Origin: an uncultured Verrucomicrobiota bacterium
GTDB taxonomy: Bacteria > Verrucomicrobiota > Verrucomicrobiia > Limisphaerales > CAIMTB01
Assembly (NCBI GenBank): GCA_964389135.1
Contig: CAYMDA010000019.1
Span: 9,103-73,102, forward strand
Direction: 5' to 3'
DNA: 64,000 bases
Position numbers and translations under genes: made by a program. The notes below the pieces were generated by a model that was not told the DNA's origin, ran no database searches, and worked only from the letters and a program-made list of their open reading frames with translations. Of this stretch, positions 8,906 through 64,000 are shown in pieces; the first letter of the stretch is position 1, and the number at the start of each line of letters is the position of its first letter.

Positions 8906-10066
8906 ATGAAGCCATCGAATCGAGAACCGACCGCCGGACAAGAGTCCTGCGGCACAGGGGATACTCCCGCCGTCTCTATTGTCATTCCCTGCCGTAATGA
9001 AGTGGATGCAATCAGCGCATGCATGACCTCGATCCTCGCGCAGGCGAGGCCGGAGGGCGGCATCGAGGTGATCGTGGCCGACGGCATGTCGGACGACGGC
9101 ACGCGCGAGGTCCTCGCCGAGATCGCGGCGAGCCATCCCGAGGTCCGGGTCATCGACAATCCGGGCCGGATCGTCTCGAAGGGGCTCAACCTCGCGATCG
9201 CGGCGGCGCGCGGCGCGGTGATCGTGCGCATGGACGTCCACTGCGAGTACGCGCCGGACTACGTCCTCGAGTGCCTCCGCGCCCTCGAGGCCAGCGGCGC
9301 GGACAACGTCGGCGGCCCGTGTGTCGCCGTGGGCCGCGGCTACATCGGGCGGGCCATCGCCGCGGCGTTCCACTCCGCCTTCTGCGTGGGGGGAGCGCGC
9401 TGGCACAGGACGGACTACGAGGGCCCCGTGGACACGATCTGCTTCGGCGCCTGGCGGAGGGACTCCTTCCGGCGGTTCGGACCCTTCGACGAGGAACTGG
9501 TCCGCAACCAGGACGACGAGCACAACCTCCGGATCCTCCGCGGCGGCGGGCGCGTCTGGCAGTCGCCCCGCATCCGGAGCACGTACCATCCGCGCGGGTC
9601 CCTTCCCGCCCTGTTCCGGCAGTACATGCAGTACGGCTACTGGAAGGTGCGCGTCATCCGGAAACACCGGCTGCCCGCATCGTGGCGGCACCTCGTTCCC
9701 GGAGCGTTCGTCGCGTGGATGCTCGTGACGGCCCTCCTGACGGCGCTCTGCGCGCTCGGCGCGTTCGCCCTCGGGGGCGACGCGGCGCGGGTCTCCGGCA
9801 CGATCGCGCTCTGGACCGGTGGCGCGTTCGCCGGTGCCGCCGCGGCGTACGCGGTGGCTGCGGGCCTCGCCGCCATCGTGTCCGGACGCCGGGCCGGATG
9901 GGATCTGGCACCGGTCCTGCCTCTCGTCTTCCTGACGTACCACGCCGGTTACGGCTGGGGCTTCCTCCGGGGACTGCTGGACGCGTGCCGCGGCGCGGGC
10001 GTGCCGGCGGAGTTCACGGCGCTCACGAGGGGCGCGCGAAGCCGGGCGACGGACGCGGCGATCTGA
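8906..10066 (+). CDS. GT2 glycosyltransferase, ExoA (succinoglycan)-like
   Basis: 'VSIVIPCRNE', 'VADGMSDDGT', 'IVRMDVH', 'FDEELVRNQDDEHNLR', 'LFRQYMQYGYWK', C-terminal TM helices and 'YGWGFLRG'; start at ATG 8906. Confidence 0.88.
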   Translation: MKPSNREPTAGQESCGTGDTPAVSIVIPCRNEVDAISACMTSILAQARPEGGIEVIVADGMSDDGTREVLAEIAASHPEVRVIDNPGRIVSKGLNLAIAAARGAVIVRMDVHCEYAPDYVLECLRALEASGADNVGGPCVAVGRGYIGRAIAAAFHSAFCVGGARWHRTDYEGPVDTICFGAWRRDSFRRFGPFDEELVRNQDDEHNLRILRGGGRVWQSPRIRSTYHPRGSLPALFRQYMQYGYWKVRVIRKHRLPASWRHLVPGAFVAWMLVTALLTALCALGAFALGGDAARVSGTIALWTGGAFAGAAAAYAVAAGLAAIVSGRRAGWDLAPVLPLVFLTYHAGYGWGFLRGLLDACRGAGVPAEFTALTRGARSRATDAAI

Positions 10067-10096
10067 TCGGGCGGTCAACGAATCGGGACGACGGCT

Positions 10097-11290
10097 ATGG
10101 ACAGGATTCCCTTCTACAAGGCGGAGCTCGGCGAGGCGGAGATCGCCGAGGTGGTGGACACCCTGCGCGGCGGCTGGCTCACCACCGGCGCGCGAACGCG
10201 CGAGTTCGAGCGTCTCTTTTCGGAGAGGCTCGGGCACCGGCACTCCGTGGCGCTCAACTCCTGCACGGCCGCGCTGCACCTCGCGCTCGAGGCGATCGGA
10301 TTGAAGCCAGGGGAGGGGGTCCTCGTGCCCACCATGACCTTCGCGGCCACCGCGGAGGTCGTGCGCTATTTCAACGCGATCCCCGTGCTCGTCGATTGCC
10401 GTGAGTCGGACTTCAACATCGACGTCGCCGACGCGGAGCGCCGCCTGAGGAAGGCCCAGGCCAGGGGCGTGAAGGTGGCCGCCATCATCCCTGTCCATTA
10501 CGGCGGTCAGATCGGCGACATGGCCGGCGTGAACCGGCTTGCCGCAGAGCACGGCCTCAAGGTCATCGCCGACGCGGCGCATTGCTGCCCCGCCTTCACC
10601 CGCGCGAACGCGGAGGCGCCGTGGGAGCCCGTCGGCCGGTCGGCGGACATCACGTGTTACTCCTTCTACGCCAACAAGTGCATCACGACCGGGGAGGGCG
10701 GGATGGCGTGCACCGAGAACGAGGAGTACGCGGACCGCATCCGGCACCTGTCCCTGCACGGCATCTCCAGGGACGCATGGCGGCGCTACACCGCGGAGGG
10801 AAGCTGGTACTACGAGATCACCGCGCCGGGCTACAAGTACAACCTCACGGACATCGCCGCGGCCATCGGCATTCACCAGCTCGCGCGAATGGACGAGCTG
10901 CACCGCAGGCGTGCGGGCATCGCCTCCCTGTACCACGAGAAGCTCCGGGATCTCGACGAGGTGATCCTGCCCGTGGCGCACCCGGACCGGATCCACTCAT
11001 GGCACCTGTATGTCATCCGGCTGCGTCCGGACCGGCTCGGCATCGGGCGCAATGAGGTCATCGACGAGCTGAAGCGGGCGGGGATCTCCACGAGCGTGCA
11101 TTACATGCCATTGCATATGCATCCCTATTACCGCGAGACGTTCGGCTACGCTCCGGAGGATCTGCCGTGCATGGCGCGGGTCTATTCCGAGATCATCAGC
11201 CTTCCGCTGTATCCCGGGCTCGCCGAGCCCCAGGTGGAGCATGTGTGCCGGACACTCCGCGAGATCATCGCGGCCAACCGGAGGCGTTGA
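10097..11290 (+). CDS. DegT/DnrJ/EryC1/StrS PLP-dependent nucleotide-sugar aminotransferase (ArnB/SpsC/PglE-like)
   Basis: 'GWLTTG', 'NSCTAALHLAL', 'PTMTFAAT', 'PVHYGG', 'DAAH', 'SFYANKCITTGEGGM' (catalytic Lys), 'GYKYN', 'ISLPLYP'. Confidence 0.93.
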   Translation: MDRIPFYKAELGEAEIAEVVDTLRGGWLTTGARTREFERLFSERLGHRHSVALNSCTAALHLALEAIGLKPGEGVLVPTMTFAATAEVVRYFNAIPVLVDCRESDFNIDVADAERRLRKAQARGVKVAAIIPVHYGGQIGDMAGVNRLAAEHGLKVIADAAHCCPAFTRANAEAPWEPVGRSADITCYSFYANKCITTGEGGMACTENEEYADRIRHLSLHGISRDAWRRYTAEGSWYYEITAPGYKYNLTDIAAAIGIHQLARMDELHRRRAGIASLYHEKLRDLDEVILPVAHPDRIHSWHLYVIRLRPDRLGIGRNEVIDELKRAGISTSVHYMPLHMHPYYRETFGYAPEDLPCMARVYSEIISLPLYPGLAEPQVEHVCRTLREIIAANRRR

Positions 11291-11297
11291 GGAAACG

Positions 11298-12665
11298 GTG
11301 ACCTGGCGCGGAGACATCGGAGCCTGCGGATCCGTTCCGGAGGCGGCGCTCGACGGGAGACGCGAGTTCGCGAAGCGGGCCTTCGACATCACCGCCGCCT
11401 TCGCGGGCCTCGTGGTCCTCGCCCCCGTGATGCTCGCGATCGCGGCGCTGATCCGGCTGTCGGATGGCGGAAGCGTGTTCTACCGCCAGCGACGCGTGGG
11501 AAGATACGGACGCGAGTTCGGGATCCTGAAGTTTCGCACGATGGTCCCGGACGCGGATCGCCGGGGCCCGCTCGTCACGGGCCGGACGGACCCGAGGATC
11601 ACCCGGGTGGGACGGGTTCTCCGGCGCTGGAAGCTCGACGAGCTGCCGCAGCTCTGGAACGTGCTGAGGGGGGAGATGAGTTTTGTCGGGCCGCGCCCCG
11701 AGGTCGCGAAGTATGTCGCGAGATACACGGAGGAACAGCGTTCCCTCCTGAGTCTGAAGCCGGGAGTCACGGACCTCGCCACCCTGCAGTTCCGCAACGA
11801 GGAGGAGCTTCTCGCGCGCGCGGAGAACGTGGAGGAGTTCTATGTGCGGCACTGCATCCCGCGGAAGTTCGAGCTGAACATGCGGTATGCGCGGCGCGCG
11901 ACATTCTGGACTGACCTCTGGGTGATCACGGCGACCGTGCTTCCCCGGTCGGTGCGGATGCTGCTCGGTCACGCGGGCGCGCTCGCGGCGAGTCTCTGGG
12001 CGGTGTACGCGATGAGGTCTGACTTCTCCTCGCTTCCCGGCGAGGACTTCTGGAAGGCCGCGCTGATCGCGGTGCCCGTGCAGGCGGCCTGTCTCGCCTG
12101 GAGGGGGCAGTTTCGAACCGTCCCGGACGTGTTTCACGGACCCGAGGCGCGGGAGGTCGCGATCGCGCTTGGCGCGGCCGCGCTGATTCAGGTGGCTGCG
12201 GGCCTTGCCTCGTCACGTCTGCCCGTGGCTCCGGCGGGCGTGATCGCGATGCATGTGCTGTGCGCATTTGCCTTCATCGCATGCGGCCGCCGCTGGCTGG
12301 GGCATCTGCGACGGCGGGTCGTTCGTCCTTCGCGGGGCACGGAACACTCTTCAGGGAAGCGGATTGCGATCGTGGGCGCGGGCGAGGCCGGGGCCTGGGT
12401 CGCGCGGCAGTTGATCCGCGGCCGGCGACACGGGATCGAGGCGTTCTTCGACGATGACCCGGGGCGCTGGCAGAGGCGGCTGCACGGAGTTGCCGTGGTC
12501 GGCATGCCGGAATGCCTGCTCGAGGGATGGTCGGGACGGGTCGAGGAAGTCGTGATTGCCACCCCGGAGTCAGGATCGGAGCGCAGATCCGAGGTGGGCG
12601 CGATGCTGAGGGGGGCGGGGATACGGGTGCGGACGCTGGGTGAGCTGGAGGACGAACTCTGCTGA
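11298..12665 (+). CDS. Undecaprenyl-phosphate phosphoglycosyl (sugar) transferase with a C-terminal TM + CoA-binding-like extension
   Basis: 'KRAFDI', 'FYRQRRVG', 'KFRTM', 'DPRITRVG', 'KLDELPQLWNVLRGEMSFVGPRPE'; then hydrophobic helices and 'IVGAGEAG...FFDDD...LHGVAVVG'. Start GTG 11298 after GAGGA. Confidence 0.88.
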   Translation: MTWRGDIGACGSVPEAALDGRREFAKRAFDITAAFAGLVVLAPVMLAIAALIRLSDGGSVFYRQRRVGRYGREFGILKFRTMVPDADRRGPLVTGRTDPRITRVGRVLRRWKLDELPQLWNVLRGEMSFVGPRPEVAKYVARYTEEQRSLLSLKPGVTDLATLQFRNEEELLARAENVEEFYVRHCIPRKFELNMRYARRATFWTDLWVITATVLPRSVRMLLGHAGALAASLWAVYAMRSDFSSLPGEDFWKAALIAVPVQAACLAWRGQFRTVPDVFHGPEAREVAIALGAAALIQVAAGLASSRLPVAPAGVIAMHVLCAFAFIACGRRWLGHLRRRVVRPSRGTEHSSGKRIAIVGAGEAGAWVARQLIRGRRHGIEAFFDDDPGRWQRRLHGVAVVGMPECLLEGWSGRVEEVVIATPESGSERRSEVGAMLRGAGIRVRTLGELEDELC

Positions 12666-12736
12666 GCCAGGGCCGCGGGCCTGCCATTGGGTAACGGGGA
12701 GGGACGGGACGAAGACGGGATTCTTCGGGAAATCGG

Positions 12737-14713
12737 ATGGATGTCATGAGCTTATTCGGAACACGCGGTGTCACCGCCGCGTTGAGGTTTGCGAAGCGGC
12801 TGACCGGGCCGTACTACCAGTCCGCCCGGTTCGGAGTGCTTGTGGTGACCTACGCGACGGTTCTGATGGCGAGCCGCTGGCTCGCCTATCAGTTCAGGTT
12901 CGAGTTCTCGGTGCCGGAAGGGATGTGGAGACAGCTGCTGTGGGGCGCCCTGTGGGCGATCCCGATGAAGCTGGTGCTTCTCTGGATCTTCGGACAGTTC
13001 TCCAATCTTCTGAGTTACTTCAGCGTCCCGGACCTGAACCGGATTCTGCAGTCGATGGGAATCGGGACGCTCGTCCTGCTCGCCACGCGACCGCTGGAGC
13101 CGGGCGAGTCGCTCATGCCCCTGAGCGTGATCGCGATGGACTTCGTCTTCTCGTGCGCCGCGGTCGGCGCGGTGCGCCTTGGCTTCCGGACCCTTCGGGA
13201 GCGTTATGTGACGAAGCCCCACACCGGCGGACCCGTGCGCAGGGTCGGAATCATCGGGGCCGGGGACGCCGGGGCGATGCTGACGCGCGAACTGAAGGCG
13301 AACCGCCGCCTCGGCCTCGTGCCCGTCGCGTTCTTCGATGACGACGCGACGAAATGGAAGTCGCGCGTGCACGGCGTGCCGGTGATCGGAAAACCGGAGC
13401 GCCTTCTCGAGCCGAAGATCCGCGCGCGGCTCGATGACGTCATCATCGCGATGCCGTCGGCGCCCGCGAGCCGGATCCGGGAGATCATCCGCCAGCTCTC
13501 GAGCGTGAAGCTGAAGGTGGAGACCGTTCCGTCGCTCGGCCAGCTCGCGACGGGACAGGTGAGGGTGAGCCAGTTGAGGAAGGTCGAGCTCGAGGACCTT
13601 CTCGGGCGCGAGCCGGTGCAACTGCATACGGAGGACATTCGTGCGGTGCTGAAGGGCAGGTCGGTTCTGGTCACCGGGGCCGGCGGAAGCATCGGGAGCG
13701 AGCTGTGCCGGCAGATCGCGGCCTACGGCCCGGCCCGGCTGGTGCTCGTCGAGCGATCCGAGGGCAGCCTGTTCCAGATCGAGCAGGAGCTCCGGGAGGC
13801 GGGCTATGGCGACCTCGTCGAACCCATCGTGGCCAACATCCTCGATGAGGCCCGGATGTGGACCGTGTTTGACCGCTTCAAGCCCCAGGTCGTCTTTCAC
13901 GCCGCGGCGCACAAGCACGTGCCGATGATGGAGAGCCAGCCGGACGAGGCGTTCATGAACAACACCGTCGGGACCGTGCGCGTCGCCGAGCTGTCGGTCG
14001 TCACCGGAGTGGAGCGCCTCGTCATGATCTCCACCGACAAGGCGATCAACCCGACCAATGTCATGGGCACGACGAAGCGCCTTGCGGAGATCTATCTGCA
14101 GGCGCTGAGCGCGGAGAACCCGGGCCGGACCCGCATCATGGCCGTGCGGTTCGGCAACGTGCTCGGGTCCTCCGGCAGCGTGGTGCCGACCTTCACCCGG
14201 CAGATCGCCGCGGGCGGCCCCGTCAAGGTGACGCACCCCGATGTGACGCGCTACTTCATGACCATCCCCGAGGCGGTCGGACTCGTCCTGCAGAGCGCGG
14301 CGCAGGGAACGGGCGGGGAGATCTTCGTCCTGGACATGGGCAAGCCCATGAAGATCGTGGATCTGGCCCGCCAGATGATCGAGCTGAACGGCCTCAGGCC
14401 GGACCTCGACATCGAGATCGAGTTCACCGGCCTGCGCCCCGGCGAGAAGCTCTACGAGGAGCTCAGCTACGAGGGCGAGAACATCACCGCGACCCGGCAC
14501 CCGAAGATTCACCGGCTTCTGTGCGAGCCGGAGCCGCTCGGCAGGGTCCGCCAGCAGATCGATGAGATCGAGGACCGTCTCCTCGCCGCCGGGCCGAACG
14601 AATTGAAGCGCCTGCTCGAACGGGTCGTCCCCGAATACCGGCCATTCATCCCGGCGCAGGAGGTGCATGACGGGCGTCACGCGGCCGGTGAGCGGATGCT
14701 CGCCGCGACCTGA
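12737..14713 (+). CDS. CapD/PglF/WbpM-type membrane-anchored UDP-GlcNAc 4,6-dehydratase
   Basis: N-terminal TMs, 'IIGAGDAG', 'EDLLGREP', 'VTGAGGSIGSELCRQ', 'HAAAHKHVP', 'ISTDKAINPTNVMGTTK', 'VRFGNVLGSSGSV', 'RYFMTIPEA', 'GLRPGEKLYEE'. Confidence 0.95.
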   Translation: MDVMSLFGTRGVTAALRFAKRLTGPYYQSARFGVLVVTYATVLMASRWLAYQFRFEFSVPEGMWRQLLWGALWAIPMKLVLLWIFGQFSNLLSYFSVPDLNRILQSMGIGTLVLLATRPLEPGESLMPLSVIAMDFVFSCAAVGAVRLGFRTLRERYVTKPHTGGPVRRVGIIGAGDAGAMLTRELKANRRLGLVPVAFFDDDATKWKSRVHGVPVIGKPERLLEPKIRARLDDVIIAMPSAPASRIREIIRQLSSVKLKVETVPSLGQLATGQVRVSQLRKVELEDLLGREPVQLHTEDIRAVLKGRSVLVTGAGGSIGSELCRQIAAYGPARLVLVERSEGSLFQIEQELREAGYGDLVEPIVANILDEARMWTVFDRFKPQVVFHAAAHKHVPMMESQPDEAFMNNTVGTVRVAELSVVTGVERLVMISTDKAINPTNVMGTTKRLAEIYLQALSAENPGRTRIMAVRFGNVLGSSGSVVPTFTRQIAAGGPVKVTHPDVTRYFMTIPEAVGLVLQSAAQGTGGEIFVLDMGKPMKIVDLARQMIELNGLRPDLDIEIEFTGLRPGEKLYEELSYEGENITATRHPKIHRLLCEPEPLGRVRQQIDEIEDRLLAAGPNELKRLLERVVPEYRPFIPAQEVHDGRHAAGERMLAAT

Positions 14714-14720
14714 ATCCCAC

Positions 14721-15464
14721 ATGATGGAGGATCTGGATTTGCCGGCCCCCGAACCCGGGAGGCCGGTTTTCTGGCTGGTGCGGATGGATGCCGCGCCGCG
14801 GGTGATCCGCACCTATGAGCCGGTGCTGTCACGCGAGGAGGCATGGCAGGCGTCGCGCTTCCGCGAGGATCGCGCGCGCATGCGGTCGGTCCTCACGCGG
14901 GGTGTCCTTCGACTCCTGCTGAGCCGCTATCAGGGCATGAACGCCGCGGACCTCGCGTTCGAGCGCGGTCCCCACGGCAAGCCCCGGCTGATTCACGGCG
15001 ACGAACGCCTGCGCTTCAACGTGGCTCATTCGGGCGAGTTCGGCCTTATCGGAGTGAGCGTGGATGCCGATATCGGCGTGGACCTCGAGCGGATCCGGCC
15101 GGAGACCGTGACGCGGGATCTCGCGCGCGCGTGCCTCACGCCGCGGGAGGCGGAGGTCCTTTGCGCGCTCGAACCGCGGGAGATGGCGCAGCGCCTGCAC
15201 TGGTGCTGGGCGCGCAAGGAGGCGCTGGTGAAAGGACACGGGGCCGGCGGCTCCCTGGATCCGCGGGAGGTTTCGGTGCCGCTCGGCGGGCCGGGCGCCG
15301 CCGCGGGCTGGATCAGCAGGCACCCGGACGGGCGGCGGTGGTCCCTGTGGGACATCGCGGCGCCGGAGGGTTATGCGGCGGCAACAGCGGTCGATGGCGA
15401 ATGCCGGGGGGCGCCATTGTTCGCATGGGAACATCCCGGCGTGGAATTTGTGGAGATTGGATGA
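14721..15464 (+). CDS. Sfp-type 4'-phosphopantetheinyl transferase
   Basis: 'RGVLRLLLSRY', 'HGKP', 'FNVAHSG', 'IGVDLE', 'WARKEALVKG'; ATG 7 nt after the CapD stop. Confidence 0.92.
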   Translation: MMEDLDLPAPEPGRPVFWLVRMDAAPRVIRTYEPVLSREEAWQASRFREDRARMRSVLTRGVLRLLLSRYQGMNAADLAFERGPHGKPRLIHGDERLRFNVAHSGEFGLIGVSVDADIGVDLERIRPETVTRDLARACLTPREAEVLCALEPREMAQRLHWCWARKEALVKGHGAGGSLDPREVSVPLGGPGAAAGWISRHPDGRRWSLWDIAAPEGYAAATAVDGECRGAPLFAWEHPGVEFVEIG

Positions 15465-16216
15465 ATTGGCTTTACTGGCCGCGAAGAAATGCCGATGCAC
15501 TCTGGCGGGGATTCTGCTTTCCCTATGCAGGATCCGGCGCGAGTGCCTACAGTGGATGGGCAGACCGACTGAATCCAAGTGCGGAGCTCTGCCTTGTTGT
15601 CCCGCCGGGTAGGGAAACCCGCCACCGGGAAAAGCCTCTCACAACGCTCGAACCGATGGTTTCCGCGGTCGTTCGGGCGATGCAGCCATTCACGGAACGC
15701 CCGTACTTCCTGTTCGGACACAGTTTCGGCGCGCTGGTCGCCTTTGAGGTGGCCCGCGCCCTGAGACGGAGCGGCTCGAGAACCCCGGATCACCTGTTTG
15801 TTTCGGCGGCGCCCGCGCCCCAGCGAGGATGGCCGCACCGGCAATTGCATTGCATGCACGATGCCGCGCTGTTGCAGGAGCTGCAGGCGCTGTACGGCGG
15901 AATTCCAAGGACGGTCTTCGAGGACGACGAACTGAGGCGGCTCATGCTGCCGGTGCTGCGCGGGGATCTTACCGTGATCGAAACGTACCGATACGAGGCG
16001 GAGGAGCCCCTGTCGTGTCCGATCACGGTGTTCAGTGGAGACCGGGACCGGGCGGTCCCTGGCGACGCCCTCGAGGAATGGCGACACCAGACGACGGCGG
16101 GCTTTCAGCATGTGCGTGTGAACGGGGACCACTTCTTCCTTCGCAGTGCGCGGGATGTGGTGACGGCAAGGGTCAGGACGGAACTGGAAGGAGCGATTGA
16201 ACATGTCGAGCGGTGA
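15461..16216 (+). CDS. Type II thioesterase (GrsT/SrfAD-like)
   Basis: 'FCFPYAGSGASAY', 'PPGRE', 'FGHSFGA', 'LPVLRGD', 'GDHFF'; ATGA overlap with the PPTase. Confidence 0.93.
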   Translation: MNWLYWPRRNADALWRGFCFPYAGSGASAYSGWADRLNPSAELCLVVPPGRETRHREKPLTTLEPMVSAVVRAMQPFTERPYFLFGHSFGALVAFEVARALRRSGSRTPDHLFVSAAPAPQRGWPHRQLHCMHDAALLQELQALYGGIPRTVFEDDELRRLMLPVLRGDLTVIETYRYEAEEPLSCPITVFSGDRDRAVPGDALEEWRHQTTAGFQHVRVNGDHFFLRSARDVVTARVRTELEGAIEHVER

Positions 16217-21536: not shown

Positions 21537-27877
<6,341 letters not shown>

Positions 27878-27881
<4 letters not shown>

Positions 27882-32025: not shown

Positions 32026-39543
<7,518 letters not shown>

Positions 39544-52582: not shown

Positions 52583-52583
52583 A

Positions 52584-57440: not shown

Positions 57441-57535
57441 AGGTGCCCGATCACAGGACAACGGGACGAGAGCATCGCGGGACCTCGGCGCCAGCCGGGC
57501 GGCTGGGCGGAGGGAACGACACTTCAAGGCAGGTC

Positions 57536-60500
57536 ATGGACTCATTCATCAGACAAGGCATCGCCATCATCGGCATGGCGGGACGTTTTCCCGGGGCCGC
57601 CAACGTGCGGCAGTTCTGGGACAACCTGACGGGCGGCGTCGAATCGGTCCGGCTGTTCACGGACGACGAACTCGCCGCCGCCGGTGTCGATCCCGGCCTG
57701 AGGAACCACCCCGAATACGTCCGCTCCGGAACGGACGTGAAGGATGCCGAGGCCTTCGACGCGGCCTTCTTCGGATACACGCCGCGCGAGGCGGAGATCA
57801 TGGACCCGCAGCAGAGGGTGTTTCTCGAGTGCGTATGGCATGCCCTCGAGAACGGCGGCTACGACCCGGGCACCTACCCCGGCCGCATCGGGCTGTACGC
57901 AGGCTCCGGAATGAACAGCTACCTCGTGCGCAACCTCCTCGGCTCCGAGGAGGTGCTCCGCGAGGCCGGGTCGTACCAGTTGATGCTGGGCAACGACAAG
58001 GACCACCTGACCACGCGCGTCGCGTACAAGCTGAACCTGCGCGGGCCCGCGGTCACGGTGCAGACGGCCTGCTCGACCTCGCTCGTCGCCGTCATCCAGG
58101 CGTGCCGAAGCCTCGCGGCGGGCGAGTGCGACATGGCCCTCGCCGGCGGGGTGTCGATCTCGTTCCCGCAGACCGAGGGTTACCTGTACGTCCCGGGCAT
58201 GATCCTGTCCCCGGACGGACATTGCCGGCCGTTCGACGCGGCGGCGCGCGGAACGGTCCCGGGCAAGGGCGCCGCCGTGGTGCTGCTGAAACCCCTCCCG
58301 CAGGCGCTCAACGACGGCGACTTCATCTATGCGGTGATCCGAGGCGCGGCGGCGAACAACGACGGTTCCGGAAAGGTGGGCTACTCCGCGCCGAGCGTGC
58401 AGGGGCAGGAGGAGGTGATCGTCGCCGCCCAGGAAATGGCGGGATTCGATCCGCGCTCCATCGGCTACGTGGAGGCGCACGGCACGGGAACGGAACTCGG
58501 CGACCCGATCGAGGTTCGCGCGCTGACTTCGGCGTTCCGGCGCGGCACCGCCGACTCGGGCTTCTGCGCGCTCGGGTCCGTGAAGAGCAACATCGGCCAT
58601 CTCGACGTCGCAGCGGGGGCGGCGGGACTGATCAAGTGCGCCCTGACGGTGCATCACGGCAGGATCCCTGCGACCGTTCACTTCAAGGAGCCGAATCCCC
58701 ACCTCGAGCTTTCCTCGAGTCCGTTCTTCGTGCCGCCGCGGACCGCGGAGTGGAACGGTGGAGGGCCCCGGCGGGCGGGCGTGAGTTCCTTCGGCATCGG
58801 CGGAACCAACGCGCACGTGTGCCTCGAGTCGGCCCCCGACCCGAAGGCCACCGGTCCCACTCGCGAATGCCAGTTGCTGGTGCTGTCGGCCGCCTCTGAG
58901 ACCGCGCTTGCCGCGGCGCGCGGGAACCTCGCGGCGCACCTCGAGCGTGACCCCGGCGTCTCGATGGATGATGTGGCGTACACGCTGCAGGTGGGACGCC
59001 GCGCATTTTCGCATCGCTGGACGGCCGTGTGCCACGACGCGGGCGAAGCCGTGGAACTGCTGCGCGCGCAGGGCGACGCGCCCGCGCGGACGTCCGGTGA
59101 ACCGGAGGTCGTGTTCCTCTTTCCCGGCCAGGGTTCGCAGCATCCCGGCATGGCTCTCCCGCTGTACGAAACGCAGCCGGTGGTTCGCCGGATCGTGGAC
59201 GAGTGCGCGGAGATCCTCCACGGTCCCCTCGGGCTGGACCTGCGTGACCTCCTGTGGGGCGGCTCGCCGGATTCGGCGGAGCGCCTGAACGAGACGCGCT
59301 ACGCGCAGCCGGCGCTGTTCGTGATCGAGTACGCGCTGGCGAAGTGGTGGATCGAACTCGGAATCCGCCCCGCCGCGCTGATCGGTCACAGCGTGGGAGA
59401 GTATGTCGCGGCCTGTCTTGCCGGCGTTTTCCCGCTGCGCGATGCCCTGCATCTCGTGGCGGAGCGCGGCCGGCTGATGCAGTCCATGGCCGAGGGCGCC
59501 ATGATGTCCGTGCCGCTTTCGGAAGCGGACGTGGTGCGTCGTCTGCCGCCCGGCCTCGAGATCGCGGCGGTGAACGGCCCCGCGATGACCGTCGTGTCCG
59601 GCCCGGTCGCGGCGATCGAGGCGTTGCACGGGTTGCTGACCGCCGAGGGCGTCTCCGCCAGCCGGCTGAAGACCTCACATGCGTTCCACTCGGCGGCGAT
59701 GGAGCCGATCCTCGCCGAATTCGAGGCGCGCGTGGCCGCCGTGCAGCGTTCCGAACCGAGCATTCCGATCATCTCGAACCTCACCGGCAAGCCCATGGCG
59801 CCGGGCATGGCGACGGAGGCGGGATACTGGCGACGGCATCTGCGGCACGCGGTTCGGTTCGGAGACGGTGTCGAAGGGCTCCTCGGGACCGGGGGCCGAT
59901 GCTTTCTCGAAGTCGGTCCGGGCACTGCCCTGACGACGCTTGTCCGGCAGGCGAACAGCCGGGAGAAGGCGCAGGCGGTCGTTTCGACGTTGCCGCATCC
60001 GCGCGAGAAGAGGACCGCGCTGGAGTCGGCTCTCGCCGCGGTGGGCCGCCTGTGGACGTGCGGCGCGCGCGTGAACTGGAAGGCGCTGCACGAGGGTGCC
60101 CCGAGGCGGCGGACGCCGCTGCCCGAGTATCCGTTTCAGCGGGTGCGCCACTGGGTGGAGCCGAAGCCCGCGAGGGCGGTGACCGTCGCGAAGCCGGCGG
60201 ATCTCACGCGGAAGGAGCTGGATGACTGGTTCTACATTCCGTCATGGCGGCAGACGCCGCCGGCGCGGGTCCTCGCGAGCGACGACACTCGCGGGAAACG
60301 GGTCGTGATCCTTGCCGATGGGCTCGGTTTGTCGGACCGCCTCGCGTCGGCGCTCGCGGAGCGCGGGTGGAAGCCGGTCCTTGTGCACCAGGGCGCGGGT
60401 TTTGCGCGGCGCGACGACGGGTCCTTTGAGGTGGATCCACGCCGGCCGGAGCATTTCGACGAGGTTTGCAGCTCCGTGGGCGGCGGCATCGGGGCGATCG

Positions 60501-62122
60501 TTCAGCTCTGGGGGCTCGCGATGAACCCGGGCGCGGGTGATGCCCCGCGGCTGCGGGAGATCGGGTTTTACCCGCTGCTCTGGCTCCTGCAGGCCTGCGT
60601 GCGGCGGGATCCCGAGGAGGCCCTGCGAGTCCATGCGGTCGTGTCGGGCGCCTTCGAGGTGATGGGCGAGGGAGTCCTGAACCCGGACGCCGCGGTGACG
60701 CTCGGACTCGTGAAGGCGCTGCCGTTCGAGGTGGCCCCCTTCAGGGCTTCCCTGATCGACATCCCGGCTGCGGACAAGGTGGACGCGGACGCGCTGGCGG
60801 CCGAGCTGGAAGTTCCCGCCACGGGCGACGTGGTGGCGTACCGGGCTGGTCAGCGGTGGGTGCGCGGCTATGAACCCGTCCGCCTCGGGGCGGTGGACGG
60901 CACTTCGCCCTCATGGAAGAAGGGCGGTGTTTACCTGATCACGGGCGGCCTCGGGGGCATCGGCCTCGTGCTTGCGGAGCACCTTGCAGGCACGTGCAGT
61001 GCGCGGCTGATCCTCACGGCCCGCACGCCGCTGCCGGAGCGCGAGCGCTGGGACGCGGTGCTCGCCCAGGAGCCGGAGGATCACCCGGTGGCCCGGCGGA
61101 TCCGGGCGGTCCGGCGGCTCGAGGCGCATGGATCGACCGTCATCGTGTCCGCGACCGACGCGGCGGATCGAGCGGCCATGAGCGCCCTCGCCGCGGAGGC
61201 GCGCGCCCGCTTTGGCGGCATCGACGGCGTCCTTCACGCCGCGGGAGCGATCGGCAATGCCAGCATTCCGGACGGGCAGACCGAACCGTTCGAGGAGATG
61301 TTCCTGCCCAAGGTCGAGGGCACCCGCGTCGTTCTCGACCTGTTCGGAAACTCCGAGGCGCGGTTCATCGTGCTGTTCTCATCGATCAGCACGGCGCTCG
61401 GCGGGATGACCCTCGGAGGTCACATGGCGGGATATGTTGCGGCCAACGCGTTCCAGGACGCCGTGGCCGCCACTCACGACGCGCGGAATGCCTCGTGCCG
61501 CGTGCTCGTCACGAACTGGGATTCGTGGAGGGAGACCGGCATGGCTGTGCGCAAGGATCCGGATCTCTCCGATGCCGCGGCCCGCCGCTTCGCGGAAACG
61601 ACCAAGACATGGGTTGGATCCGCCGAGGGGGTGGAAGCGCTGGAGCGGATCATGGCGGCGGGGTTGCCGCAGGTGATCGTGTCCACGCGCGACCTGAACC
61701 AGCGGATTGCCAGCCGGCGCATGACGGAACCGGCCGCGCCCGCAGCCGGCAATGCACCCTCCTCCGCGACGCCGTCGGCTGGTGCGGCCCCCTCGGCACC
61801 CGCCGCCGGGGAAAGCCGGAACGGCAGGGCGCTTGATCCCGTCGAGGCGGGGATCATCGACATCTGGAAGGACCTGATGGGCGTGAAGTCAATCCGCGCC
61901 GAAGACGACTTCTTCGAGCTCGGCGGGCATTCGCTGCTCGGAACGCAGGTCCTCGCGCGGGTGCGCAGCCGGTTCGGCGTGGCGCTTCCCCTGCGCGCGA
62001 TCTTCGAGGCAACGACTCCCGCCGCGATGGCGGACCTGATCCGATCGAGCACCGCGGGGGGTGGGCAGGACCCCGCGGGCGCCCCCGCAGAGGAAGGCGA
62101 GCGCGAGGAGATCGAACTGTGA
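57536..62122 (+). CDS. Hybrid-type PKS module 7: KS-AT-KR-carrier (accepts an aminoacyl intermediate)
   Basis: Hybrid KS signatures 'NDKD' and 'VQTACSTS'; AT 'GHSVG', 'HAFH'; KR 'TGGLGGIG', 'GYVAAN'; carrier 'FFELGGHSL'; ends 'EREEIEL'. Start ATG 57536 (alternative GTG 57443). Confidence 0.94.
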   Translation: MDSFIRQGIAIIGMAGRFPGAANVRQFWDNLTGGVESVRLFTDDELAAAGVDPGLRNHPEYVRSGTDVKDAEAFDAAFFGYTPREAEIMDPQQRVFLECVWHALENGGYDPGTYPGRIGLYAGSGMNSYLVRNLLGSEEVLREAGSYQLMLGNDKDHLTTRVAYKLNLRGPAVTVQTACSTSLVAVIQACRSLAAGECDMALAGGVSISFPQTEGYLYVPGMILSPDGHCRPFDAAARGTVPGKGAAVVLLKPLPQALNDGDFIYAVIRGAAANNDGSGKVGYSAPSVQGQEEVIVAAQEMAGFDPRSIGYVEAHGTGTELGDPIEVRALTSAFRRGTADSGFCALGSVKSNIGHLDVAAGAAGLIKCALTVHHGRIPATVHFKEPNPHLELSSSPFFVPPRTAEWNGGGPRRAGVSSFGIGGTNAHVCLESAPDPKATGPTRECQLLVLSAASETALAAARGNLAAHLERDPGVSMDDVAYTLQVGRRAFSHRWTAVCHDAGEAVELLRAQGDAPARTSGEPEVVFLFPGQGSQHPGMALPLYETQPVVRRIVDECAEILHGPLGLDLRDLLWGGSPDSAERLNETRYAQPALFVIEYALAKWWIELGIRPAALIGHSVGEYVAACLAGVFPLRDALHLVAERGRLMQSMAEGAMMSVPLSEADVVRRLPPGLEIAAVNGPAMTVVSGPVAAIEALHGLLTAEGVSASRLKTSHAFHSAAMEPILAEFEARVAAVQRSEPSIPIISNLTGKPMAPGMATEAGYWRRHLRHAVRFGDGVEGLLGTGGRCFLEVGPGTALTTLVRQANSREKAQAVVSTLPHPREKRTALESALAAVGRLWTCGARVNWKALHEGAPRRRTPLPEYPFQRVRHWVEPKPARAVTVAKPADLTRKELDDWFYIPSWRQTPPARVLASDDTRGKRVVILADGLGLSDRLASALAERGWKPVLVHQGAGFARRDDGSFEVDPRRPEHFDEVCSSVGGGIGAIVQLWGLAMNPGAGDAPRLREIGFYPLLWLLQACVRRDPEEALRVHAVVSGAFEVMGEGVLNPDAAVTLGLVKALPFEVAPFRASLIDIPAADKVDADALAAELEVPATGDVVAYRAGQRWVRGYEPVRLGAVDGTSPSWKKGGVYLITGGLGGIGLVLAEHLAGTCSARLILTARTPLPERERWDAVLAQEPEDHPVARRIRAVRRLEAHGSTVIVSATDAADRAAMSALAAEARARFGGIDGVLHAAGAIGNASIPDGQTEPFEEMFLPKVEGTRVVLDLFGNSEARFIVLFSSISTALGGMTLGGHMAGYVAANAFQDAVAATHDARNASCRVLVTNWDSWRETGMAVRKDPDLSDAAARRFAETTKTWVGSAEGVEALERIMAAGLPQVIVSTRDLNQRIASRRMTEPAAPAAGNAPSSATPSAGAAPSAPAAGESRNGRALDPVEAGIIDIWKDLMGVKSIRAEDDFFELGGHSLLGTQVLARVRSRFGVALPLRAIFEATTPAAMADLIRSSTAGGGQDPAGAPAEEGEREEIEL

Positions 62123-62175
62123 TCGAAGCCTCAGCCACGGCCAGGACGGGCCAGAACCACAAACACTCCCCGGGC

Positions 62176-64000
62176 ATGAACCGAGAAACCATCGACCTCA
62201 TGGACGAGCTGCGCCTTGCGGGCGTCCAGTTGTCCAGCCGGGACGGCCGTCTGCGCGTGAGCGCGCCGGCCGGACGGATGACGCCGGAGCTGCAGGAACG
62301 GCTGCGCCAGCACAAGGAGTCCATCCTTGAGGCGCTCTCGCGCGGTGCGCTGCCGCCGATCCCGATCACCGACCGTGGTGCGCCGATCCCCGTCAGCCTG
62401 AGCCAGCAGCGGCTCTGGCTGATGGACCGCATGGACCCCGGCAATCCCGCCTACAATCTCGTGCAGGCCCACAGGCTTCACGCGACGCTCGACACCGCGG
62501 TTCTCGAGAAAGCCCTGGTGCTGCTCGCGGAGCGCCATGAGACGCTGCGCACGACCTTCCACGACGAGGGTGGCGTGCCGGTTCAGCGGATCCACCCGTC
62601 CATGTCCTTCCCGGTCGATGTGCTGGATCTGCGCGACCTCCCCCCGGACCAGCGCGAGGCCGCGGCGGAGGAGCGGATCCGCAGGGAATCGCTGCATTCG
62701 TTCAACCTCGAGGAGGGGCCGCTCCTGCGGGCGCTGCGGATCCGGCTGGAGGATTCGGAGGAGTACCTCGTCTTCGTGCTGCACCACATCATCGCAGACG
62801 GATGGTCCATGCAGATCCTCCGCCGCGAGGTCGGTGCGCTGTACGAGGCGGTGTACACGGGCGCACCGAGCCCGCTGCCGCCGCTCCCGGTGCAGTTCGC
62901 GGACTACGCGGCATGGCATCGCAAGGCGGTCGAGGGCGAGGTCGAGCAGGCCGACGCGGAGTACTGGAGCCGCAAGCTGAGCGGCATCGAACCGGTGCTC
63001 GAACTCCCCACGGACCGTCCGCGGCCCCAGCAGCGCAGCCACGCGGGTGCCGTCCATCGCTTCAACGTGGACGCCGGGTTGACCAGGGAGCTCAACCGTG
63101 TCGCCCGGGCGAACGACGCCACGCTCTTCATGGCTCTCCTGTCGGCGTTCGCCACGCTCCTGCATCGCTACACCGGCAGCACCGACTTCTGCATCGGCGC
63201 GCCGGTGGCCGGCCGGACCCGTCCGGAGACCGAGCCGATGATCGCGATGCTCGTCAACACGGTCGTCCTGCGGATGGAACTCGAAGGCGATCCGACCTTC
63301 CGGGAACTGCTGGTCCGAAACCGGACGACCACGCTCGAGGCGCTCGAGCACCAGGCGCTCGGCTTCGAGAAGCTCATCACTCTGCTGGACGTCCCGCGGA
63401 GCACGGCGCACACGCCCGTGTTCCAGGTGTTCTTCGGCATGGAGGAGGTCAGCGCGGAGGACGAGGCGGGCGTCGTGCGCACCCTCGAGGTCAATCTGCC
63501 CACGGCAAAGTTCGATCTGACGGTGAACGTGGAGCATTCCACGAAGGGCCTGCGCGTCACGTTCGAGTACAGCACGGACCTGTTCAACGCCGACACGATC
63601 GAGCGCATGGCGGGCCACTTCGTGGAGCTGCTCCGGAGTGTCGTCGAAAGCCCTGCGGAAAGGATCTCGCGCCTCCGCCTGATGGGTGAGGAGGAGCGTC
63701 GCATGGTCCTGGAGCGATGGAACCCCGAGCCGACGACGTGGCAGGGCCCGGCGTGCGTCCACGAGGCAATCGGGGAGGCGGCGAGGCTCCGGCCGGGCGC
63801 GGTCGCCGTGAGCATGGGCGACCGGACGCTGACCTACGGGCAACTGATCGAGCGAGCCGACTGGCTCGCGCACCGCCTCGTGCACCACGGCGTCGGACTC
63901 GAGACGCTCGTGGGTGTCTGCATGGAGCGCTCGCCCGAGATGGTCATCGCGCTGCTCGCCATCTGGAAGGCCGGCGCCGCCTACGTGCCGCTGGACCCCG
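62176..64000 (+). CDS. Second NRPS (TubC_N docking-C-A...), truncated by the window edge; absent from the ORF track
   Basis: Translated by hand from ATG 62176 (or in-frame GTG 62119): 'MNRETIDLMDELRLAGVQLSSRDGRLRVSAP...SLSQQRLW...HHIIADGWS...LPTDRPRP...IWKAGAAYVPLDP', open to the window end. Confidence 0.92.
   Translation, partial: MNRETIDLMDELRLAGVQLSSRDGRLRVSAPAGRMTPELQERLRQHKESILEALSRGALPPIPITDRGAPIPVSLSQQRLWLMDRMDPGNPAYNLVQAHRLHATLDTAVLEKALVLLAERHETLRTTFHDEGGVPVQRIHPSMSFPVDVLDLRDLPPDQREAAAEERIRRESLHSFNLEEGPLLRALRIRLEDSEEYLVFVLHHIIADGWSMQILRREVGALYEAVYTGAPSPLPPLPVQFADYAAWHRKAVEGEVEQADAEYWSRKLSGIEPVLELPTDRPRPQQRSHAGAVHRFNVDAGLTRELNRVARANDATLFMALLSAFATLLHRYTGSTDFCIGAPVAGRTRPETEPMIAMLVNTVVLRMELEGDPTFRELLVRNRTTTLEALEHQALGFEKLITLLDVPRSTAHTPVFQVFFGMEEVSAEDEAGVVRTLEVNLPTAKFDLTVNVEHSTKGLRVTFEYSTDLFNADTIERMAGHFVELLRSVVESPAERISRLRLMGEEERRMVLERWNPEPTTWQGPACVHEAIGEAARLRPGAVAVSMGDRTLTYGQLIERADWLAHRLVHHGVGLETLVGVCMERSPEMVIALLAIWKAGAAYVPLDP

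What the first reader, a model, noticed from the sequence alone, without database searches (positions are those of the whole stretch)
8906..64000. Glycan-initiation genes and a large PKS/NRPS line fused into one apparent operon: candidate polyketide-peptide-anchored or -decorated polysaccharide system
Seen: GT2, aminotransferase, phosphoglycosyl transferase and CapD run straight into PPTase (7 nt after the CapD stop), TEII (ATGA overlap) and PKS1 (overlap), then on through all PKS/NRPS genes with gaps under 100 nt, one strand and no obvious terminator. Known: single iterative PKSs in capsule loci (Sinorhizobium RkpA, Burkholderia WcbR) are thought to make lipid anchors or carriers. Inference: here a modular line of at least 9 modules with a reduced, methyl-branched tail and Gly-derived units may build a glycolipopeptide or the anchor/acyl decoration of an Und-PP-assembled surface glycan, not a diffusible antibiotic. 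I do not recognise this architecture as a characterised cluster.
Basis: partly seen in the sequence, partly recalled or inferred. Interest (0 to 1): 0.85.

Follow-up and report, generated by a model that had tools for sequence, protein, structure and literature searches.

The report
Orphan PKS-NRPS cluster inserted after capD
A 52-kb polyketide-peptide gene cluster has been inserted at the tail of a conserved surface-sugar operon in a compost bacterium, so the fusion is real, but nothing yet shows that its product is attached to the sugar polymer.

Summary
GT2, DegT, phosphoglycosyl transferase and CapD run on one strand into PPTase (7 nt after the capD stop), TEII, seven PKS modules, EamA, a free-standing C and two Gly NRPS modules. 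All gaps are 95 nt or less. The line ends just past the window in a TE plus a GNAT.

Two same-genus genomes keep Big9 | GT2-DegT-PGT-CapD-TPR without any PKS (Big9 seen only in G008). The 52.4-kb block (14721-67151) is therefore an insertion. It is also a compositional outlier, and it is the genome's only PKS/NRPS cluster. No close ortholog was found (PKS1 49% or less in 185,579 species genomes).

Most likely it is a self-contained lipopeptide cluster, predicted to make methyl-branched polyketide-Gly-(beta-hydroxy C2)-Gly. It probably rides on the glycan operon's transcription.

Three distant, colinear relatives in Chloroflexota also lie directly downstream of glycan genes (Wzx, AsnB, GT4). 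In control PKS/NRPS loci this was seen in 7 of 111. I put chemical coupling to the glycan at about 0.2.

Earlier scan notes on other DNA (e1-4408933, e1-3942493, e1-3869065, all unchecked) describe similar PKS/NRPS-in-polysaccharide-locus cases.

The parts
4287..4316 (+). Terminator-like hairpin (12 pairs) that ends the upstream EPS gene run (GT4, GT4, PaaK/F390-like ligase, GNAT)
   Evidence: It lies between the GNAT stop (4283) and the end of the convergent minus-strand gene (4408).
4408..8556 (-). 1382-aa Big_9/cadherin-like secreted protein. It is transcribed divergently from the GT2 operon.
   Evidence: GC3 0.89. Pfam Big_9 and Cadherin_5. An ortholog sits in the same position and orientation in G008.
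8557..8905 (.). 349-nt divergent intergenic region. This is the only promoter-sized gap upstream of the whole GT2-to-GNAT unit.
   Evidence: Sequence read. No sigma-70-like match was found, but that scan is uninformative for this phylum.
8906..10066 (+). GT2 glycosyltransferase
   Evidence: PF00535. 56% identical orthologs in G004 and G008.
10097..11290 (+). DegT/PseC-type sugar 4-aminotransferase
   Evidence: PF01041 at 377 bits. Best NCBIfam match is PseC at 350 bits, below its cut-off. Orthologs at 61-66% in G004 and G008.
11298..12665 (+). Small phosphoglycosyl transferase (Bac_transf) fused to a C-terminal half that resembles the N-terminal CoA_binding_3 region of CapD
   Evidence: PF02397. 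CapD residues 36-267 match window 11961-12647 at 35%. The alternative start at 11241 overlaps DegT by 50 nt.
12737..14713 (+). CapD/PglF/PseB-type membrane UDP-HexNAc 4,6-dehydratase. It is the last conserved gene before the insertion.
   Evidence: PF02719 at 384 bits. It is the only full-length copy in the genome. Full-length orthologs at 55-64% in 7 relatives, plus G008 at 63% over the C-terminal part.
14714..14720 (.). 7-nt left junction of the inserted block
   Evidence: DNA homology to G004 and G008 stops about 180-200 nt before the capD stop. No direct or inverted repeat of 9 nt or more is shared with the right junction.
14721..15464 (+). Sfp/HetI-type PPTase
   Evidence: PF01648 and PF22624. 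NCBIfam HetI at 115 bits, below its cut-off. Unique in the genome.
15461..16216 (+). Type II thioesterase
   Evidence: PF00975 at 154 bits. ATGA overlap with the PPTase.
16203..21512 (+). PKS module 1, KS-AT-KR-ACP. The KS has Cys-His-His. There is no loading module and no N-terminal docking region. The AT motif is VASH.
21537..27881 (+). PKS module 2, KS-AT-DH-ER-KR-ACP
27878..32011 (+). PKS module 3, KS-degenerate AT (no GHSxG)-cMT-ACP
32026..39543 (+). PKS module 4, KS-AT-DH-cMT-ER-KR-ACP
39550..46107 (+). PKS module 5, KS-AT-DH-cMT-KR-ACP. My regex did not find the DH HxxxGxxxxP motif.
46121..51622 (+). PKS module 6, KS-AT-DH-KR-ACP
51644..52582 (+). EamA/DMT-family membrane transporter, the likely exporter. 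It sits in the same mid-line position as the EamA of relative G218.
   Evidence: PF00892. Five hydrophobic segments. The G218 EamA is 33% identical.
52584..54083 (+). Free-standing condensation domain (motif HHIAFDA) with no docking domain
   Evidence: PF00668 at 288 bits. Motif seen. The best solved relatives are NRPS elongation C domains (Txo2, TycC, Txo1, TomB); no PapA5-type chain appeared among the 60 of 62 matches shown.
54138..57440 (+). NRPS module, TubC-type dock-C-A(Gly)-T
57443..62122 (+). PKS module 7, KS-AT-KR-ACP. It extends Gly to a 4-amino-3-hydroxybutyryl unit (inferred).
62119..64000 (+). Last NRPS module, dock-C-A(Gly)-T-TE, cut by the window end. It runs to 66324. Beyond it lie a GNAT at 66321-67151, a 59-aa PEP-CTERM-like ORF at 67245-67424, a hairpin plus T7 at about 67469-67490, and the TPR gene at 67583-69256.
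   Evidence: locus L002 = contig 71000-79967

Best explanation
A self-contained 52.4-kb hybrid cis-AT PKS-NRPS cluster was inserted between capD and a TPR gene. The site is the 3' end of a conserved surface-polysaccharide operon in an uncultured compost/manure bacterium, which earlier unchecked notes place in Verrucomicrobiota.

Cluster content: PPTase, TEII, 7 PKS modules, EamA exporter, free-standing C, 2 Gly NRPS modules, TE and a GNAT.

Shown: the gene content, the domain order, the 7-nt junction, the absence of the block from syntenic relatives, and its odd base composition.

Inferred:
(1) The block has no promoter-sized gap of its own. It is therefore probably transcribed by read-through from the GT2-DegT-PGT-CapD promoter region (8557-8905), or from a promoter inside capD.
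(2) KS1 is primed by an unknown acyl starter.
(3) Six modules build a partly reduced chain, with C-methyl branches added at modules 3-5.
(4) NRPS1 adds Gly.
(5) PKS7 adds a beta-hydroxy C2 unit, giving a 4-amino-3-hydroxybutyryl residue.
(6) NRPS2 adds a second Gly.
(7) The TE releases the chain by hydrolysis or lactonisation.
(8) EamA exports it.

The glycan genes (UDP-HexNAc 4,6-dehydratase, 4-aminotransferase, phosphoglycosyl transferase, GT2) start an Und-P-linked amino-sugar glycan, as they do in relatives that lack the cluster. The two chemistries are independent.
For: Synteny. In G008 the order is Big9 (opposite strand) | GT2-DegT-...-PGT-CapD, then 219 bp, then TPR. In G004 it is GT2-DegT-PGT-CapD, then 3.8 kb (HepT-like and others), then TPR. 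The TPR genes are reciprocal best hits.

Other CapD loci. 0 of the 7 fetched CapD-ortholog loci in relatives have any PPTase, TEII, PKS or NRPS match.

No orthologs found:
- 0 of 40 relatives have a C-domain match above 36% identity.
- PKS1 has no match above 49% in 79 loci from 185,579 species genomes.
- The PPTase has no match above 41% in metagenome contigs.

Genome content. It is the only modular PKS/NRPS and the only Sfp-type PPTase in the genome.

Composition. The block has GC 70.2% against 68.5 +/- 0.55% for the genome, and tetranucleotide distance 0.0104 against a mean of 0.0047. 0 of 95 genome windows reach either value.

Self-sufficiency. The block has its own PPTase, TEII, TE and transporter. 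The free-standing C looks like an ordinary NRPS C domain.

Transcription. The first intergenic terminator-like site comes only after the cluster. One RNA-library contig (run X17, 14430-15027, no differences) bridges the capD stop and the PPTase start.
Against: Three distant colinear relatives (G041, G042, G218) also lie directly downstream of glycan genes on the same strand. In control PKS/NRPS loci this was seen in 7 of 111. That hints the neighbourhood is not accidental.

The roles of the free-standing C and the GNAT are unexplained. The GNAT has a weak PseH-like match (29.5 bits, far below its cut-off).

No loading module is present, so the starter is unknown.

The odd composition could reflect the amino-acid make-up of PKS proteins and not foreign origin.

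The RNA-library contig may derive from DNA carried into the library.

Only 2 genomes show the empty site.
Confidence: 0.6

Rival explanations
1. Functional coupling. This family of assembly lines makes a methyl-branched acyl-glycine lipid. The lipid is joined to, or assembled together with, a surface glycan. For example, it could N-acylate the 4-amino sugar made by CapD and DegT, or serve as a lipid anchor. The free-standing C or the GNAT would be the coupling or tailoring enzyme.
For: All 4 known members of the colinear family lie directly downstream of glycan-assembly genes, on the same strand and with gaps of 140 nt or less:
- G000 lies behind GT2-DegT-PGT-CapD.
- G041 lies behind AsnB-Wzx.
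- G218 lies behind GT4-Wzx-AsnB.
- G042 lies behind a different Wzx.

The Wzx genes beside the clusters do not form one clade, so the juxtaposition arose, or was renewed, more than once.

Control loci show a glycan-gene hit in 7 of 111.

Modules 1-5 and the Gly-specific A domain are conserved across the family.

The line starts with a KS and has no loading module, which is typical of lipid-extending PKSs.

The Chloroflexota versions lack a TE and carry alpha/beta-hydrolases and a GDSL/SGNH enzyme.

The PPTase resembles HetI.
Against: The orthologous glycan operon exists in G004 and G008 without the cluster.

AsnB-Wzx-GT4 cassettes occur without any PKS in 10 of 10 further Chloroflexota loci, including a paralog in G041 itself.

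The G000 line has its own TE and exporter, and no glycosyltransferase.

The C domain is of the NRPS elongation type.

The three Chloroflexota members are kin, so they are not independent.

The control loci were centred on genes that may lie inside clusters, and the query set contained the family's own glycan genes. The 4/4 against 7/111 contrast is therefore inflated.

Glycan loci are known recombination hot spots, and G004 carries a different insert at the same site.
Confidence: 0.22
2. Ancestral unit with loss. The cluster was originally part of the locus and was deleted in G004, G008 and the other genus members.
For: Only two empty sites were seen. No repeats, integrase or tRNA mark an insertion.
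Against: 0 of 13 same-genus genomes have an ortholog-level match to the free-standing C. The block is a compositional outlier. The nearest colinear relatives are in another phylum, at 33-45% identity.
Confidence: 0.08
3. Assembly chimera. The capD-PPTase junction is a mis-join of two organisms in a metagenome bin.
For: The genome is a 98-contig assembly. Logan contigs of run X10 break at 14245-14452.
Against: The 2-kb junction stretch is held at 0.97-1.00 of its words in 15 runs. The X10 contig covers 14423-27000 and the X17 RNA-library contig covers 14430-15027, and both bridge the junction without a difference. GC3 is similar on both sides.
Confidence: 0.02

Closest known systems
Uncharacterised colinear PKS-NRPS clusters in Chloroflexota MAGs: CAYZRP010000004.1 (= G041 C4, uncultured Anaerolineales), G218 C63, and partly JAIOHM010000215.1 (= G042)
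   Same: TEII and PPTase are present. Modules 1-5 carry the same domain sets, including KS-AT-cMT-ACP at module 3. A Gly-specific C-A-T follows the PKS part. G218 has an EamA in mid-line. Protein identities are 33-45%. KS1 groups with G218 KS1 (support 92/95), and KS2 groups with G041 KS1 and KS2 (support 96/98).
   Different: They stop after one Gly module. They have no TE, no free-standing C, no PKS7 or NRPS2, and no GNAT. Instead they carry two alpha/beta-hydrolases and a GDSL enzyme, with Wzx and AsnB at the head. The other KS domains group within each genome. No product is known for any of them.
WcbR/RkpA-type PKS genes inside proteobacterial capsule clusters (Burkholderia wcb, Sinorhizobium rkp)
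   Same: A type I PKS gene lies among capsular-polysaccharide biosynthesis and export genes (PMC3908369, passages read).
   Different: Those are single type I PKS genes that are conserved parts of the capsule cluster. Here there are 7 PKS and 2 NRPS modules with a TE, and the block is absent from syntenic relatives. The best PKS1 matches to Paraburkholderia PKS loci are only 33-39% identical.
Mycobacterial surface glycolipid loci (glycopeptidolipids; PapA-dependent acyltrehaloses). This comparison is recalled, not tested by a call.
   Same: Methyl-branched polyketide chains and NRPS parts that end up on sugars at the cell surface. Stand-alone condensation-fold enzymes do the coupling.
   Different: No PapA5-type chain appeared among the 60 of 62 solved matches shown for the free-standing C. 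The block has no FAAL, no MmpL and no dedicated glycosyltransferase.
Modular cis-AT PKS-NRPS lipopeptide lines with TubC-type N-terminal docking domains (myxobacterial style)
   Same: PF18563 docking domains sit on both NRPS proteins. Domain sets are cis-AT, with cMT-bearing reducing modules, a TEII and a terminal TE. The best PKS1 matches are Sorangium at 47-49%.
   Different: No orthologous cluster was found. The phylum is different. The line has no loading module, it carries an extra free-standing C, and it is fused to a glycan operon.
Pse/Pgl-type amino-sugar initiation block (PseB/PglF dehydratase, PseC/PglE aminotransferase, PglC-type transferase)
   Same: CapD matches PseB best and DegT matches PseC best. 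A small Bac_transf transferase is present.
   Different: All scores are below the NCBIfam equivalog cut-offs. The 4-gene block has no LbH (PglD) acetyltransferase. The transferase carries an unusual C-terminal half that resembles the CapD N-terminal region.

Membership tests
Hybrid modular cis-AT type I PKS-NRPS assembly line | KS, an in-module AT, and an ACP in every PKS module | tested here: met
   7 of 7 modules have KS and ACP. 6 of 7 have an AT with GHSxG. The AT of PKS3 is degenerate.
Hybrid modular cis-AT type I PKS-NRPS assembly line | C-A-T NRPS modules and a terminal release domain | tested here: met
   NRPS1 is C-A-T. NRPS2 is C-A-T-TE. HHxxxDG is present in both C domains.
Hybrid modular cis-AT type I PKS-NRPS assembly line | A defined loading module or starter-activating enzyme | tested here: not met
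   PKS1 starts with a Cys-His-His KS 16 residues from its ATG. The block has no AT-ACP, FAAL, CoL or GNAT loader.
WcbR/RkpA-type capsule PKS | A single type I PKS gene | tested here: not met
   There are 7 distinct PKS modules plus 2 NRPS modules.
WcbR/RkpA-type capsule PKS | The PKS is a conserved component of the polysaccharide cluster in related genomes | tested here: not met
   G004 and G008 keep the glycan genes without it. 0 of 7 CapD loci in relatives carry PKS genes.
PapA-type polyketide-to-sugar acyltransferase (for the free-standing C) | Closest similarity to PapA5/WS-DGAT-like stand-alone acyltransferases, not to NRPS C domains | tested here: not met
   62 PDB sequences matched and the best 60 were shown. 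The top ones are Txo2, TycC, Txo1 and TomB C domains, and no PapA5 was listed.
Genomic insertion (island) in a conserved locus | The flanking genes are adjacent in relatives | tested here: met
   capD and TPR are 219 bp apart in G008 and 3.8 kb apart in G004.
Genomic insertion (island) in a conserved locus | Deviant base composition | tested here: met
   0 of 95 genome windows reach its GC or its tetranucleotide distance. Caveat: PKS coding bias could contribute.
Genomic insertion (island) in a conserved locus | Mobility marks (integrase, tRNA, flanking repeats) | tested here: not met
   None of the block's ORFs scanned against Pfam (the main + strand ORFs) matched an integrase or transposase family. 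The junctions share no repeat of 9 nt or more. No tRNA scan was run.
Pse/Pgl-type UDP-4-amino-4,6-dideoxy-HexNAc pathway | 4,6-dehydratase, 4-aminotransferase and N-acetyltransferase scoring above the equivalog cut-offs | tested here: inconclusive
   PseB 168 bits (cut-off 408). PseC 350 bits (cut-off 424). The GNAT scores 29.5 bits against PseH (cut-off 93). The family-level assignment is sound, but the exact sugar is not determined.
Single operon (GT2 through GNAT) | One transcript spans capD and the PPTase | tested here: inconclusive
   The gap is 7 nt and there is no terminator-like site. One RNA-library contig bridges the junction. DNA carry-over is not excluded, and a contig does not prove a single transcript.

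The most novel reading that the evidence does not exclude
A cross-phylum family of PKS-NRPS lines (Verrucomicrobiota and Chloroflexota) is habitually wired into the 3' end of surface-glycan operons. It does not make a diffusible antibiotic. It makes a methyl-branched acyl-glycine lipid that becomes an anchor or N-acyl decoration of an Und-P-assembled glycan. In this genome the acceptor would be the 4-amino sugar made by CapD and DegT. The free-standing C or the PseH-like GNAT would act at the interface.
Probability: 0.2. Interest if true: 0.8.

Novelty: new member of a known kind. Interest (0 to 1): 0.45.

Why it matters
As it stands, this is an orphan hybrid PKS-NRPS cluster in a phylum with very few characterised natural products. 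Its predicted product is a methyl-branched polyketide-Gly-(4-amino-3-hydroxybutyryl)-Gly chain. No close homolog was found in 185,579 species genomes.

It is also a clean example of a biosynthetic cluster landing promoter-less at the end of an envelope-polysaccharide operon. That would tie its expression to surface-glycan synthesis.

The organism recurs in compost and manure metagenomes, and RNA libraries contain the region, so the product could be sought in real samples.

If the recurrent glycan neighbourhood of the family proves functional, it would add a modular polyketide-peptide lipid to the short list of ways bacteria anchor or acylate surface glycans.

Tried and rejected
1. TEII as a family marker. 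33 of 401 Chloroflexota genomes have a TEII match at E <= 1e-30. I fetched 20 of the 49 listed places. 19 were unrelated NRPS/PKS clusters and 1 (G218) was a family member.

2. PPTase scan of metagenome contigs. It gave 38 loci, with a best identity of 41%. None of the 15 loci of 5 kb or more had a glycan homolog or a colinear head. No sister-species copy was found, so I could not test the adjacency in close kin.

3. RNA coverage. In run X18 the bins over DegT-CapD have no cover, while PPTase/TEII do. With contigs at this depth a hole proves nothing. The even depth in X16 could be operon-level expression or DNA carry-over.

4. Sigma-70 promoter scans. They gave 0-1 hits, at the shuffle expectation, and the model may not fit this phylum.

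5. Flanking repeats at the two junctions. None of 9 nt or more was found.

6. DNA-level boundary mapping against G004 and G008. The sequences are too diverged; homology fades about 200 nt before the capD stop.

7. KS phylogeny for positional orthology. Only modules 1 and 2 pair across genomes. The rest cluster within each genome.

8. Literature. Four searches found no paper describing this architecture, a capD-linked modular PKS-NRPS, or a matching Gly-C2-Gly lipopeptide. Only PMC3908369 was opened, and only in passages. The other papers were seen as listings and abstract starts. MIBiG and antiSMASH were not available.

9. Earlier-findings look-ups by place and by sequence returned nothing.

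10. Script slips. The script scanned only 13 of 77 control loci because of an id-format slip, and one search replaces it.

11. The upstream 494-aa ORF is not a Wzx. It has no hydrophobic segments and no phmmer match.

Full report
WHAT IS THERE

The window is contig C19:9103-73102 of a 4.87-Mb, 98-contig, 68% GC genome. Earlier scan notes place the genome in Verrucomicrobiota (I did not check this).

Pfam scans, codon-position GC and direct reading of the junctions give one co-directional run. In order:
- GT2 (8906-10066)
- DegT aminotransferase (10097-11290)
- Bac_transf phosphoglycosyl transferase (11298 or 11241 to 12665)
- CapD (12737-14713)
- Sfp-type PPTase (14721-15464)
- TEII (15461-16216)
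- PKS1 KS-AT-KR-ACP
- PKS2 KS-AT-DH-ER-KR-ACP
- PKS3 KS-degenerate AT-cMT-ACP
- PKS4 KS-AT-DH-cMT-ER-KR-ACP
- PKS5 KS-AT-DH-cMT-KR-ACP
- PKS6 KS-AT-DH-KR-ACP
- EamA transporter
- a free-standing C domain
- NRPS1 dock-C-A-T
- PKS7 KS-AT-KR-ACP
- NRPS2 dock-C-A-T-TE

NRPS2 ends 2.3 kb beyond the window, at 66324. A GNAT overlaps its stop (66321-67151). Every gap is 95 nt or less. The capD stop and the PPTase ATG are 7 nt apart.

LIMITS OF THE UNIT

Upstream, the EPS genes end at a strong hairpin (4287-4316). These genes are an Asn synthase, several GT4 and GT2 genes, Wzy, a PaaK/F390-like ligase and a GNAT.

A 1382-aa Big_9/cadherin gene then lies on the opposite strand (4408-8556). The unit therefore starts in the 349-nt divergent region before 8906.

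Downstream, the first intergenic terminator-like site is a hairpin with seven T at about 67469-67490. It follows a 59-aa PEP-CTERM-like ORF. The terminator-like matches inside the unit are intragenic and number no more than in shuffled sequence. Positions 57001-61897 were not scanned.

IS THE JUNCTION REAL, AND IS IT TRANSCRIBED?

The stretch 13700-15700 is held at 0.97-1.00 of its sampled words in 15 listed runs from compost and manure metagenomes. Fourteen are DNA? runs and one is labelled 'RNA? (probably DNA)'. Three further RNA libraries hold it at 0.70, 0.60 and 0.23.

Laid on 7001-27000:
- A contig of DNA run X10 covers 14423-27000 without a difference. X10 may be the source sample.
- A 598-nt contig of RNA library X17 covers 14430-15027, bridging the capD stop and the PPTase start.
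- RNA library X16 has contigs over GT2/DegT, PGT, PPTase/TEII, PKS1 and PKS2.

This fits co-transcription, but it does not prove it. DNA may be present in such libraries, a contig is not a transcript, and I had no call left for a silent control.

THE DECISIVE COMPARISON

CapD has full-length orthologs (55-64% identity) in seven of 40 relatives, plus a 63% match over its C-terminal part in G008 and partial matches in two more. I fetched seven of these loci. None has a match to the PPTase, the TEII or any PKS/NRPS gene.

Two same-genus genomes keep the same locus:
- G008 has Big9 (opposite strand) | GT2-DegT-(three other genes)-PGT-CapD, then 219 bp, then the TPR gene.
- G004 has GT2-DegT-PGT-CapD, then 3.8 kb holding a HepT-like gene, then the TPR gene.

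That TPR gene is the reciprocal best hit of the gene that follows the cluster here. The block 14721-67151 (52.4 kb) is therefore an insertion into a variable spot between capD and TPR.

Further support:
- The free-standing C has no match above 36% identity in any of 40 relatives, 13 of them same-genus.
- This is the genome's only modular PKS/NRPS and only Sfp-type PPTase.
- Its GC (70.2%) and tetranucleotide distance exceed all 95 genome windows of equal size. PKS coding bias may contribute to that.
- No integrase or transposase was found among the block's scanned ORFs, and the junctions share no repeat. No tRNA scan was run.

WHERE ELSE DOES THE CLUSTER OCCUR?

PKS1 against one genome for each of 185,579 species gave 79 loci with at most 49% identity. 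The PPTase against metagenome contigs gave at most 41%. So there is no close ortholog.

Two Anaerolineae MAG loci shared a TEII-PPTase head. Following them up showed a distant but colinear family.
- G041 (CAYZRP010000004.1) has TEII-PPTase-PKS1..PKS6-NRPS(C-A-T). It is 34-44% identical, protein for protein, with the same domain sets in modules 1-5, including KS-AT-cMT-ACP at module 3.
- G218 has PKS1..PKS5-EamA-PKS-NRPS(C-A-T).
- G042 is partly alike.

Their A domains also read as Gly. A KS tree pairs module 1 with G218 module 1 (support 92/95), and module 2 with G041 modules 1 and 2 (support 96/98). The other KS domains cluster within each genome. The polyketide-Gly core is thus conserved. 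The tail in the present genome (free-standing C, PKS7, second Gly, TE, GNAT) is its own.

THE RESULT THAT CUTS THE OTHER WAY

In all three Chloroflexota members, glycan-type genes sit directly upstream on the same strand:
- AsnB-Wzx in G041, 139 nt before TEII
- GT4-Wzx-AsnB in G218, 60 nt before PKS1
- a Wzx in G042, 133 nt before TEII

These are ordinary cassettes. In 10 of 10 further Chloroflexota places that I fetched (of 32 places listed), Wzx is followed by the same GT4 type, sometimes with AsnB, and no PKS is present. One of these is a paralog in G041 itself.

In a Wzx tree, the copies beside clusters pair with cluster-free copies and not with one another. So 4 of 4 family members lie behind glycan genes, in at least three different glycan contexts.

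As a rough background, 21 glycan-gene queries hit an ORF in 6 of 77, 1 of 19 and 0 of 15 control PKS/NRPS loci. That contrast is inflated for three reasons:
- Control flanks may still be inside clusters.
- The queries include the family's own neighbours.
- The Chloroflexota members are kin.

Glycan loci are also known hot spots for insertion, and G004 carries a different insert at the same site.

MECHANISM

Shown:
- KS1 has the Cys-His-His triad and no loading module.
- ATs 2 and 4-7 are malonyl-like (HAFH-type variants). AT1 is atypical (VASH). AT3 is dead.
- cMT domains sit in modules 3-5.
- Both A domains read DILQLGMVWK (the code positions are recalled).
- TubC-type docking domains head both NRPS proteins.

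Inferred:
- An unknown acyl starter is extended six times to a partly reduced, C-methylated chain.
- The chain is passed to Gly, extended by malonate and reduced to a 4-amino-3-hydroxybutyryl unit.
- It is joined to a second Gly, released by the TE and exported by EamA.

The free-standing C has HHIAFDA and resembles NRPS elongation C domains (Txo2, TycC, Txo1, TomB). It does not resemble PapA5-type acyltransferases, and its role is open. The GNAT's best matches are SpeG (35.6 bits) and PseH (29.5 bits), both far below their cut-offs.

The four glycan genes fit a PseB/PglF-PseC/PglE-PglC-type start of an Und-P-linked 4-amino sugar. That assignment is at family level only.

VERDICT

The fusion is real, and the insertion is well supported. 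The most likely reading (0.6) is a self-contained orphan lipopeptide cluster that landed, without a promoter of its own, at the end of a surface-glycan operon and is probably expressed with it. Chemical coupling to the glycan (0.22) is not supported in this genome, but the family's recurrent glycan neighbourhood keeps it open.

Four literature searches found no description of this architecture.

Earlier notes of this scan report similar PKS/NRPS-in-polysaccharide-locus cases on other DNA. I did not check them.

Noticed in passing
beyond the window: 67245-67424 in window numbering (L002:5348-5527): A 59-aa ORF made of a signal peptide plus a PEP-CTERM-like sorting tail (VPEPS, a hydrophobic stretch, then RRRRNR). 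It lies between the cluster's GNAT and the TPR gene and is followed by the hairpin plus T7. NCBIfam PEP-CTERM matches are weak (E 3e-4, below cut-off). The capD-TPR gap of G008 holds no counterpart.
   Followed up: partly
window 11298-12665: The phosphoglycosyl transferase has its catalytic Bac_transf domain first. A roughly 240-aa C-terminal half follows that is 35% identical to the N-terminal membrane/CoA_binding_3 part of the neighbouring CapD. This is the reverse of the usual WbaP/WcaJ domain order. G008 seems to share it.
   Followed up: partly
window 4408-8556 (- strand): A 1382-aa secreted protein with internally repeated Big_9/cadherin-like units is conserved divergently next to the GT2 operon in G008 (40-70% identity per repeat). 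Its function is unknown.
   Followed up: no
L028 (G004:C34) 5165-9014: The same capD-TPR site in relative G004 holds a different 3.8-kb insert, including a HepT-like (toxin-antitoxin type) gene. The site is therefore a variable spot in this genus.
   Followed up: partly
L217-L226 (Chloroflexota genomes): An AsnB-Wzx-GT4 or Wzx-GT4 cassette is widespread in Chloroflexota. A Wzx match at E <= 1e-40 occurs in 28 of 401 genomes, and 10 of 10 fetched places show the GT4 partner. G433 has two tandem copies.
   Followed up: partly
L083, L086, L088, L102 (Paraburkholderia loci): Single PKS1-like genes of about 6.3 kb with a GT4 gene about 6 kb downstream. They may be wcbR/rkpA-type capsule PKS loci.
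   Followed up: no
window 2254-4283: A PaaK/F390-synthetase-like adenylating enzyme (NCBIfam DVU_1553 family at 137 bits, below cut-off) and a GNAT end the upstream EPS gene run. This suggests an acyl or aryl decoration of that polysaccharide.
   Followed up: no
L033 (G008:C21): In G008, capD and PGT match in several frames with internal stops. These may be frameshifts from the assembly or real decay, and I cannot tell which.
   Followed up: no
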